64,000 nucleotides of DNA from Squalus acanthias (taxonomy: Eukaryota). Location of the stretch: NCBI GenBank assembly GCA_030390025.1, contig CM059432.1, forward strand, positions 37,884,001 to 37,948,000, read 5' to 3'. Positions 45,656 through 47,596 of this stretch are shown here, in pieces; position 1 is the stretch's first letter; every line of letters starts with the position of its first letter. The notes beneath the pieces are model-generated. The model did no database searches. It was not told the origin of the DNA and worked only from the letters and a program-made list of their open reading frames with translations. A program made the translations under genes and the position numbers.

Positions 45656-47445
45656 CTTCAAGTTGCCCATACATGTCAACCTAGAAAACTGGTAAAAGTT
45701 GATCAATAGCTGGACAAAAGCTGTCACAGTCCCCAGAAAGCTCAAGAACAGCCCTGAGTATGAGCCTATGACATGCGAGAACTACTGGTTAGATACGCTT
45801 TGTAACCTAAACTGTAGGTAAATGAAACAATCCTTCAATAGGGGAAAAACAAATAAATACATATAAATGTGATGGGAGAAATACAAATGCTAAAGCTACA
45901 ACATCGGTGGTGCATTGGGAGGTGGGGGTATGGTCAGGGCACGCTTCCTTGGAGAATTTTTGAATTTTTAAATGAAAAGTTATGCATCTGGTTCATTTTA
46001 AGTACTTTCATACTGCACAACTGATAGCTTTATAATGAAAAAAGGAACTTTTGGATTTTAACAAACCAACCAGACCATCACTTCCCAAAAGTTTCCTCAA
46101 CAGCACTCTACAACATTCAACAACCCCCTCGCTGCAGTTCACAGAGGCGGTCCATCTCCTCTGGATCTAGTTCAAAGACACTGTACCCTATGCAAATCCT
46201 CACCTTTTCTCTTCCCTCAACTCTCTCAGTACCTACTGGCATTCTTGCCTTCTTTCTCCTCAATTCAAGCTGGCACTCTTCTCTATCCACTCAATTTAAC
46301 CTGGCACTTTTCTCCTCCATTCTCAAATGATCATACCCCTCTCTCTCTCACCCAACACCCTCACCCCAATTCAAGCAGTCATTTTCCCTTTCCTCCTTCA
46401 ATTCAACCTAGCAGTGTTTTCCTGCTCCAGCCCAGTGGAAGCTGACACTCATCCTCCATTCCCACCTTATTTCAAGCTGCCAAGATTCTTCCTTGCCCCT
46501 ATTCACAGCAGTGCCGAGGTTGAAGAGGTGTTGAGATAGAAGTGGTGTTCAGAGTGGTGGTGGCCTGGTCCATGCCGAGTATTGTCAGTAAACACTGACA
46601 GGTGGACCAGGCCCCTGGAACGCTAACACTTGGCATGTATGGTTGACAACTTGATAGAGCACAAATCCACAAAAAAAGAAAGGAAAAGAGTAAGAGTGAT
46701 AATTTTAAATAGGACTCTCAGATCACCTTTAGCACATGGAGCATAACTGTACTATTAGACATTATTGGAGTCTGCAGACAGAGAAATGATGTATTTCCAT
46801 AATATTTAGGGTTTGTGGAACTTATGAGAAATTTGGCACAGTAGCTAGTCAAATGGGCAATGGGGAAACTGGAATTGGTTCAAGGAAGGACTCTGGAAAA
46901 TTCATGCTGTAAAATGCTTTGATCAGTGCGCGTTATAGCTTAGCATCCAAAAACGAGCTGTCACAGAATTATGTAAAGAGATGCAAGTGTTTTCATTTGT
47001 GGCCACGGCACCTAACTGTTCCAAAATACCTGAGCCACAGCTGCTGAGACTGGCATTCAGTAAACAGCACACCCTGACCTCACATTCCACTTTGCTCAGC
47101 TTGCACCCACTGGCCAAATGTAAATTACCGTCCTTGTGCAGTACTCCCCAACCTACAGAACTGCCTCTGCACCTCTGTGTCTGTGAGTCTTGTATGACCT
47201 CACATTACCATGATTCATCTCGATTTATAATTTCTGTAACTTTATTTTGAAATTACATACAATGAAGTATTTGTGTCATGCTTACTCTGCATTAAAAACA
47301 AGATCAACTTATATTTCTAGGTGTTCATAAAAGAGGTTTCAAGTGCCTAAATTAAAATGATGTGGAGATGCCGGTGTTGGACTGGGGTGGACAAATGTGA
47401 GAAGTCGCACAACACCAGGTTATAGTCCAACAGTTTTATTTGAAA

Positions 47446-47482
47446 TCACAAGCTTTCGGAGCGCTGCTCCTTCGTCAGGTGA
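47446..47482 (-). ncRNA. Minimal type I hammerhead ribozyme motif (mirror copy, sense to TMEM241 pre-mRNA)
   Basis: Exact reverse complement of 47485-47521. Confidence 0.75.
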
Positions 47483-47484
47483 CT

Positions 47485-47521
47485 TCACCTGACGAAGGAG
47501 CAGCGCTCCGAAAGCTTGTGA
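47485..47521 (+). ncRNA. Minimal type I hammerhead ribozyme motif
   Basis: UCAC-CUGACGA-A-GGAGC-AGC-GCUCC-GAAA-GC-UU-GUGA: CUGANGA and GAAA core boxes, 5-bp stem II, 4-bp stem I, stem III replaced by a palindrome. Confidence 0.75.
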
Positions 47522-47596
47522 TTTCAAATAAAACTGTTGGACTATAACCTGGTGTTGTGCGACTTCTTAAATTAAAATGAGCAAGTAATGAAGATT

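What the first reader, a model, noticed from the sequence alone, without database searches (positions are those of the whole stretch)
47348..47580. Young palindromic insertion carrying back-to-back hammerhead ribozymes in a TMEM241 intron
Seen: a 207-bp insert flanked by a perfect 13-bp duplication (taaattaaaatga). It consists of a 39-nt unique tail plus two perfect 83-bp inverted arms with a 2-nt spacer. Each arm starts at the symmetry axis with UCAC-CUGACGA-A-GGAGC(AGC)GCUCC-GAAA-GCUU-GUGA. Established: CUGANGA/GAAA is the hammerhead core; Penelope-like elements carry minimal type I hammerheads lacking stem III in their pLTRs and often insert with an inverted terminal copy. Inference: everything except the ribozyme-bearing ends is missing, so a transcript from either strand holds one hammerhead and its exact antisense. 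It could either self-cleave (as a dimer via palindromic AAGCUU; the CUU triplet is suboptimal) or fold into an 83-bp dsRNA hairpin. This may be a non-coding, ribozyme-only mobile unit or a one-off truncation product.
Basis: partly seen in the sequence, partly recalled or inferred. Interest (0 to 1): 0.8.

Follow-up and report, generated by a model that had tools for sequence, protein, structure and literature searches.

The report
Mirror-image stub of Penelope retroelement
A recent 207-base insertion holds two back-to-back copies of the end of a very common repeat, likely a Penelope-type jumping gene; each copy carries a hammerhead ribozyme motif that is predicted to be folded away in a long hairpin, and the layout is one already described for this class.

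Summary
The anatomy is real: 13-bp duplication, perfect 83-bp inverted arms, 39-nt tail, and a minimal type I hammerhead motif in each arm. Two related organisms lack the insert at this site, so it is young. But the tail is not unique. It starts a second copy at 63967 and belongs to a very abundant family whose copies end at two clustered points about 40 nt apart. Inverted copy + 30-40-nt tail + duplication + hammerhead is the published insertion pattern of Penelope-like elements (PLEs). Other copies join head to head at other points, so the mirror half is most likely built anew at each insertion. How often this exact junction recurs could not be counted. In any read-through transcript the hairpin beats the ribozyme fold by about 62 kcal/mol, so self-cleavage here is unlikely. 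No parent gene, cleavage or TMEM241 identity was shown by a tool. The scan has noted the same kind of stub before, in this genome and in two others. One lead remains: the two arms begin within 3 nt of each other at an initiator-like motif, so the stubs may be run-off copies that mark the RNA's 5' end.

The parts
47348..47360 (+). Left copy of the target-site duplication, AT-rich; its last 4 nt (47357-47360) equal the family's own sequence, a microhomology
   Evidence: loose ends cluster at 47357, and contigs of organisms B and C match the flank up to 47360
47361..47399 (-). 39-nt PLE-type tail, family sequence between the long and short end clusters; 47375-47383 is predicted to pair with 47424-47432
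   Evidence: tail defined in PMC3846280, PMC8557442, PMC11167929
47400..47482 (-). Left arm: element end in its sense on the minus strand
47446..47482 (-). Minimal type I hammerhead motif, left: core C3 47478 to A9 47472, stem II 47470-47458, G12-A15.1 47457-47454, predicted cut after 47450
47482..47484 (+). Head-to-head junction; A-C-T is family sequence upstream of the right copy, with 47482 shared by both copies; initiator-like motif in the family
   Evidence: table 7 (loose ends behind 47482); the initiator reading is inference
47485..47567 (+). Right arm: same 83 nt, no tail, ending at the family's short end cluster
47485..47521 (+). Minimal type I hammerhead motif, right: core from 47489, predicted cut after 47517
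47568..47580 (+). Right copy of the target-site duplication
63967..64000 (-). Second family copy, starting at the same tail end and cut by the window edge
   Evidence: 33 of 34 identical
50496..50544 (-). AG/GT-bounded host exon upstream of the insert; TMEM241-like by recall only
   Evidence: not confirmed
24447..24481 (-). AG/GT-bounded host exon downstream of the insert; TMEM241-like by recall only

Best explanation
The insert is two copies of the end of a very abundant hammerhead-bearing repeat, likely a Penelope-like retrotransposon, joined head to head inside a duplicated target site, and it was likely made in one insertion event in which the element's enzyme primed reverse transcription from both nicked DNA strands. 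Shown: the anatomy; the empty site in two relatives; two clustered family ends; other head-to-head junctions in the family; 4 nt of target-element microhomology. Inferred: a PLE protein supplied in trans nicked the AT-rich site with a 9-13-nt stagger; one 3' end started at the long start point and the other at the short one, which leaves the 39-nt tail on one copy only; both cDNAs copied RNA that had not been cut at its hammerhead (both keep the sequence 5' of the cut site); they stopped just upstream of the ribozyme and were joined over about 1 nt of microhomology. Predicted: in host pre-mRNA the arms snap into an 83-bp hairpin that prevents the ribozyme fold, so the stub is a passive double-stranded RNA source, not a cleaving switch. 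Identity as a PLE stub about 0.9; the two-primer step about 0.6.
For: Anatomy equals the published pattern: inverted pLTR, optional 31-bp tail and 9-bp duplication in Pen2a (PMC3846280); 30-40-bp tail at one end plus inverted 5'-truncated copy (PMC8557442). A purified PLE protein cleaves and extends both strands, prefers AT-rich DNA, starts at two internal sites whose spacing is the tail, uses uncleaved RNA and is predicted dimeric (PMC11167929). Here family ends cluster at 47356-47361 and 47388-47398 in 4 of 4 runs (24 of 399 loose-end rows shown), and the two arms use one each. 15,340, 10,746, 4,781 and 5,115 contigs lie on the stretch, almost all on the element, against one flank contig per run among the pieces shown. 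Four other opposite-strand joints: 47394|47482, 47417|47454, 47433|47470, 47436|47482. X7 and X8 contigs match 47040-47360 (8 and 7 substitutions, 1 gap) and then run 76 letters off the element. Hairpin versus ribozyme fold: 62.8 and 61.8 kcal/mol; a lone copy forms stems I and II at 0.79-0.98. No substitution at 2% or more is listed in 47451-47482 in any run; position 17 varies only U to C.
Against: No parent open reading frame was seen: no genome is held, and 0 of 37 frames scanned (35 of the 81 frames of 100 aa or more, plus 2 exon candidates) hit a GIY-YIG family, so the PLE call rests on motif and anatomy. No Rfam hammerhead family reaches its threshold (best: HH10, 15.3 bits, E 3.2; none on the single arm). 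The symmetric junction lay at the edge of the stretch laid, so it was neither seen nor counted in reads. One other junction (47394|47482) has depth 135 against 17.8 on the flank in X5, so some junctions may be multi-copy. The right arm ends at 47400, 2-9 nt inside the short-end cluster shown. The 76 letters in X7 and X8 were not printed. The final sequence cannot tell two primers from fold-back synthesis.
Confidence: 0.72

Rival explanations
1. Same PLE stub, but the mirror arm arises by fold-back: one cDNA (or an antisense template) self-primes at the axis and copies itself before joining the second target end.
For: Self-priming was proposed for head-to-head PLE junctions with palindromes (PMC3846280). 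The arms are 83 of 83 identical and nearly symmetric, with a 2-nt centre, as fold-back would give.
Against: The second arm ends at the family's short end cluster, a discrete point, which a separate priming explains and fold-back needs an extra step for. Three of the four other joints pair arms 37-46 nt out of register and one 88 nt. Both strands are extended in vitro (PMC11167929). Identical arms also follow from youth.
Confidence: 0.17
2. The 207-nt palindrome is itself a non-autonomous mobile unit, copied whole by PLE proteins in trans.
For: It keeps the tail and the predicted arm-tail stem that may be the enzyme's start signal. pLTR sequences alone can drive integration in trans (PMC3846280). 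One other junction looks multi-copy in X5 (depth 135 versus 17.8).
Against: All 4 listed opposite-strand joints differ from this one and from each other, and none is shared between runs. Its transcript is predicted to be a -165 to -178 kcal/mol hairpin that hides the arm-tail stem and the ribozyme. Many family contigs continue upstream past the axis as ordinary element sequence (54, 51, 79, 65 contigs).
Confidence: 0.07
3. Assembly artefact, or a miniature inverted-repeat DNA transposon or microRNA-like hairpin with a chance ribozyme motif.
For: Perfect palindromes can be assembly errors, and the centre was not seen in reads. Rfam's best scores are microRNA hairpin models (103.7 bits against a gathering score of 249).
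Against: An X1 contig joins flank and tail (47040-47378) with no difference. The duplication matches the point where relatives' contigs leave the reference. The inverted repeat is not terminal: one side has a 39-nt tail. The motif occurs once in 200 shuffles. The microRNA scores vanish on the single arm.
Confidence: 0.04

Closest known systems
Endonuclease-bearing PLE insertions with inverted pLTR and tail (Pen2a_Av, PMC3846280; general scheme in PMC8557442)
   Same: Head-to-head inverted copy of the element end, 30-40-nt tail on one side only, short target-site duplication, hammerhead motif in the repeat.
   Different: No coding sequence or direct pLTR pair between the arms: the whole insert is 207 nt. 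The passages read describe inverted copies beside an ORF or a captured gene, and solo pLTRs, not ORF-less mirror stubs.
PAc, Poseidon element of Anolis carolinensis (PMC11167929)
   Same: Two discrete 3' ends separated by a tail, AT-rich target, hammerhead about 85-125 nt upstream of the ends, uncleaved template.
   Different: In PAc the ORF starts in hammerhead stem II; here all three sense frames stop within the arm (my reading of the sequence), so the clade is not assigned. No protein tested.
Minimal hammerheads (min-HHR) of metazoan PLEs (PMC4209133)
   Same: Type I, no stem III, 4-bp stem I, extra nucleotide between 9 and 10.1, G10.1-C11.1, palindromic 15.2-16.2; mostly dispersed single motifs; pairs on opposite strands 100-700 bp apart are mentioned.
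   Different: Stem II is 5 bp (7-8 in the Schistosoma families); the two motifs here are only 10 nt apart at their cores. No cartilaginous fish appears in the parts read.
Non-LTR retrozymes (bioRxiv 10.64898/2026.07.22.740005)
   Same: Short, non-coding, hammerhead-bearing, PLE-derived; reported in the one chondrichthyan sampled.
   Different: Retrozymes are head-to-tail tandem repeats with same-strand ribozymes; this is an inverted pair whose transcript has one ribozyme and its antisense.

Membership tests
PLE insertion (EN+) | ORF with telomerase-like RT and GIY-YIG endonuclease in the family | not testable with these tools
No genome held; none in the insert; 0 of 37 scanned frames hit GIY-YIG.
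PLE insertion (EN+) | Hammerhead motif in the terminal repeat | tested here: met
PLE insertion (EN+) | Optional 30-40-nt tail at one end, between two discrete ends | tested here: met
   39 nt; two end clusters in 4 of 4 runs
PLE insertion (EN+) | Inverted 5'-truncated copy joined head to head | tested here: met
   four other such joints
PLE insertion (EN+) | Short target-site duplication at an AT-rich site | tested here: met
   13 bp, 12 of 13 A/T; relatives' contigs leave the reference at its end
PLE insertion (EN+) | Direct pLTR pair (partial tandem) around an ORF | not testable with these tools
   Needs the assembly
Minimal type I hammerhead | Core CUGANGA and GAAA, NUH triplet | tested here: met
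   position 17 U or C in the family
Minimal type I hammerhead | Stems I and II, G10.1-C11.1, extra base after A9, palindromic 15.2-16.2 | tested here: met
   stem probabilities 0.79-0.98 in a lone copy
Minimal type I hammerhead | Self-cleavage as dimer or with protein | not testable with these tools
   Computed dimer fold -20.3 kcal/mol, against -21.2 for two monomers and -30.1 for the best (inactive) cofold; needs an assay
Rfam hammerhead families | Gathering score of a curated model | tested here: not met
Non-LTR retrozyme | Head-to-tail tandem units, each with a same-strand hammerhead | tested here: not met
   Inverted pair only
Independently mobile palindromic unit | Same junction at many loci with different flanks | tested here: inconclusive
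   This junction lay at the edge of the stretch laid; the four listed joints all differ
Miniature inverted-repeat DNA transposon | Terminal inverted repeats abutting the duplication on both sides | tested here: not met
   39-nt tail between left duplication and arm

The most novel reading that the evidence does not exclude
The stubs are not random truncations but complete run-off products. The PLE enzyme, which starts inside its RNA, would load at the 5'-most copy of its start signal and copy the 85-125 nt back to the RNA's capped 5' end, on both nicked strands at once. The right copy here begins exactly at the A of an initiator-like motif read from the family's upstream sequence, the left copy 3 nt later, and other copies stop 0, 3, 4 and 12 nt beyond 47482. 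If so, the many stubs of this family are a genomic record of the start site and of two-strand priming, they explain why short hammerhead ends vastly outnumber full elements, and the mirror layout would switch the ribozyme off inside host introns. Against: other joints lie far inside the arm, and many contigs run 25 nt or more further upstream.
Probability: 0.3. Interest if true: 0.5.

Novelty: new member of a known kind. Interest (0 to 1): 0.2.

Why it matters
As one locus it matters little: it is one of very many copies, laid down in a published pattern. Its use is as a clean, young example of a PLE-type integration product with an empty site in relatives. How PLEs form inverted repeats and tails is stated as open in PMC8557442 and PMC11167929, and a genome with thousands of such short stubs could test two-primer against fold-back synthesis from sequence alone. 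If mirror stubs are common in introns they would also be a large source of perfect double-stranded RNA.

Tried and rejected
Whole genome: none held, so copies could not be listed. Rfam at gathering, 0 hits in 64 kb; at E up to 10 only hairpin-driven microRNA models and HH10 at E 3.2; single arm, 2 chance snoRNA hits. Degenerate patterns in viral, metagenome and prokaryote collections: 0 matches each. TMEM241 check: short-motif scan gave two plausible exons among many chance matches; homologue search with a 40-aa stretch found no candidate; Pfam none. Second individual X5 has no cover at 47190-47339 (55% of the run read), so polymorphism is untested. The contrast of 0 of 50 variable sites in hammerhead plus arm-tail stem against 11 of 72 elsewhere (Fisher p 0.003) is not used as proof: borders were drawn after seeing the data, position 17 was put outside, a 1-nt loop II insertion was not counted, and differences near the end of the stretch are under-reported. 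A downstream promoter element at +28 to +32 of the proposed start is not present (by eye, recalled consensus). Lunse et al. on dimer cleavage not held. Supplements of PMC11167929: 0 hits for 4 terms, figures not seen. Sequence look-up among earlier findings: nothing; look-alike by place: one unrelated bacterial note; start-site wording: nothing.

Full report
Observation. The window holds identical 13-mers at 47348-47360 and 47568-47580 around a 207-nt insert. The insert has perfect 83-bp inverted arms (47400-47482, 47485-47567) with CT between them and 39 nt more on the left. Each arm, read outward from the axis, has a 4-bp stem I, the CUGANGA core, one extra A, a 5-bp stem II with G10.1-C11.1 and a 3-nt loop, GAAA, a palindromic G-C at 15.2-16.2, and a CUU triplet. 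A descriptor built from PMC4209133 finds only these two sites in the window and one site in 200 dinucleotide shuffles; it was written after seeing the sequence. Rfam gives nothing at gathering score; its best hammerhead score is 15.3 bits at E 3.2.

The tail is family sequence. A second copy begins at 63967 from the same end, 33 of 34 identical, and runs off the window. No genome is held and three collection scans found nothing, so I used public runs. Of 24 runs listed, four were laid on 47040-47484, which is the left flank and left arm only: X1 and X5 (organism A, two samples; X1 may be the window's source), X7 (organism B) and X8 (organism C). 15,340, 10,746, 4,781 and 5,115 contigs were laid. 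Summed depth in X1 is 10.2 on the flank and 4-6.5 million on the element. The tool warns that this is no copy number; allowing for 31-fold overlap of short contigs I infer roughly ten thousand copies or more. Loose ends on the tail side cluster at 47356-47361 and at 47388-47398 in all four runs (24 of 399 rows shown), with AT-rich, unrelated flanks. The left copy uses the long end, the right copy ends at 47400, just inside the short cluster. The family also matches 47357-47360, so four bases of the target equal element sequence.

Age. An X1 contig joins flank and tail (47040-47378) without a difference. In X7 and X8 a 1,407-nt contig matches 47040-47360 with 8 and 7 substitutions and one gap, then runs 76 letters that do not fit the element. 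The letters were not printed, but 76 nt past the right duplication is where another repeat begins in the window, a likely place for a contig to end. I read this as the empty site. The family itself is abundant in B and C, so it is older than this insertion. X5 has a gap over the site, so polymorphism is untested.

Junctions. Behind 47482 the family continues as AGTG(A/G)AGAG on the plus strand in 54, 51, 79 and 65 contigs. The CT 'spacer' is therefore the right copy's own upstream sequence: the right copy starts at 47482-47483 and the left about 3 nt further in. Four opposite-strand joints are listed (47394|47482, 47417|47454, 47433|47470, 47436|47482); their side lengths fit head-to-head geometry, all differ, none is shared between runs, and none appears in X7 or X8. 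One has depth 135 against 17.8 on the flank in X5 and may be multi-copy.

Ribozyme. No substitution at 2% or more is listed in 47451-47482 in any run; a 1-nt insertion in loop II occurs mainly in organism A, and position 17 is C in about 29% of depth in X1 and X5. This fits constraint, but the count is post hoc. A lone 122-nt copy forms stems I and II with probability 0.79-0.98 and a 9-bp stem between arm and tail at 0.46-0.60. In the whole insert, on either strand, the antisense arm is transcribed first, the hairpin folds at -177.5 or -165.5 kcal/mol, and forcing the ribozyme costs 62.8 or 61.8. The computed dimer fold (-20.3) is no better than two monomers (-21.2) and worse than an inactive cofold (-30.1). 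Cleavage at this locus is therefore unlikely. Both arms keep the sequence 5' of the predicted cut, so the template was not a cleaved 3' product.

Comparison with print. PMC3846280 (passages) describes a PLE insert completed by an inverted pLTR, with an optional 31-bp tail and a 9-bp duplication, calls head-to-head the commonest arrangement and proposes self-priming; it names TCACT as an initiator-like motif in that pLTR. PMC8557442 (passages) gives the inverted truncated copy and the 30-40-bp tail as general PLE traits. PMC11167929 (parts 1-2 of 4; supplements searched for four terms without a hit, figures not seen) shows a purified PLE protein cutting and extending both strands at AT-rich DNA, starting at two internal sites that define the tail, using uncleaved RNA, with a hammerhead that cleaves only with protein. 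PMC4209133 (parts 1-2 of 4) defines minimal hammerheads in pLTRs, finds most as dispersed single motifs, notes opposite-strand pairs 100-700 bp apart and reports low dimer activity. PMC6765202 (passages) reviews dimer cleavage; the primary paper was not held. PMC2377424 (passages) places an internal promoter with an initiator in the Penelope pLTR. bioRxiv 10.64898/2026.07.22.740005 (part 1 of 5 and passages; supplements closed) covers tandem retrozymes, which this is not. Six searches listed no paper on this family or on ORF-less mirror stubs in cartilaginous fish; repeat libraries such as Repbase could not be searched. That the host is a shark is my recall of the repeat and the wording of earlier notes, not a tool result.

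Mechanism. Most likely a PLE protein acting in trans nicked the target on both strands, each 3' end primed a cDNA on uncut element RNA, one at the long and one at the short start point, and the two cDNAs stopped just upstream of the hammerhead and were joined. The anatomy, ends, empty site and junction variety are shown; the protein, the priming and the joining are inferred from the Anolis element. Fold-back synthesis is the main rival. The boldest reading is that the stop is the RNA's 5' end: the family's upstream sequence reads as an initiator-like motif (consensus recalled) whose A is the first base of the right copy, and copies in tables 5 and 5c stop 0, 3, 4 and 12 nt beyond 47482. Other joints far inside the arm, and many contigs that run further upstream, count against it.

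Host gene. Two AG/GT-bounded exons on the minus strand (50496-50544, 24447-24481) bracket the insert. They resemble TMEM241 as I recall it; searches did not confirm the name. Ten of 37 scanned frames hit RVT_1, none GIY-YIG, the nearest 2.8 kb away.

Earlier notes. My reading was recorded before I saw any. Notes on two other genomes describe 5 and 16 such palindromic stubs, and notes on this genome describe fold-back insertions, an intact PLE with paired hammerheads, and other transposons landing in a hammerhead-bearing repeat. They are unchecked and were not counted as evidence.

Verdict. Real, young and well preserved, but a new member of a described kind. Interest 0.2; the run-off reading has probability 0.3 and would deserve 0.5.

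Noticed in passing
window 63967-64000: Second family copy starting at the same tail end; its flank also ends in TGA, matching family sequence. Cut by the window edge.
   Followed up: partly
run X5, joint 47394|47482: A head-to-head joint between a tail-only piece and a copy starting at 47482 has depth 135 against 17.8 on the flank, yet is absent from X1; may be a multi-copy or duplicated junction.
   Followed up: no
window 47040-47378, run X1: The contig joining flank and tail has depth 10.2 while several other single pieces in X1 have 17-18.5; could be one haplotype, unexplained.
   Followed up: no
window 47450 and 47462 (family variants): Position 17 is C in about 29% of depth in organism A and in none in B and C; a 1-nt loop II insertion occurs in about 5% (X1) to 11% (X5) of depth.
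   Followed up: partly
window 47657-47745 and 47893-47969: Another repeat, 80-83% like 35608-35696 and 35383-35458 in inverted orientation.
   Followed up: no
window 40767-42871: Long frames open in all six readings with strong negative GC skew, probably a simple tandem repeat.
   Followed up: no
window 1036-1509, 7982-9138, 13484-14646, 31173-31700, 38606-39214, 43139-44587, 61336-62088: Reverse transcriptase fragments (RVT_1, 10 of 37 frames scanned), probably LINE remnants.
   Followed up: no
runs X1 and X5, table 5c: Two family copies in direct orientation 26 letters apart, the same in both samples; the first stops 3 nt beyond 47482, as the right copy here does.
   Followed up: partly
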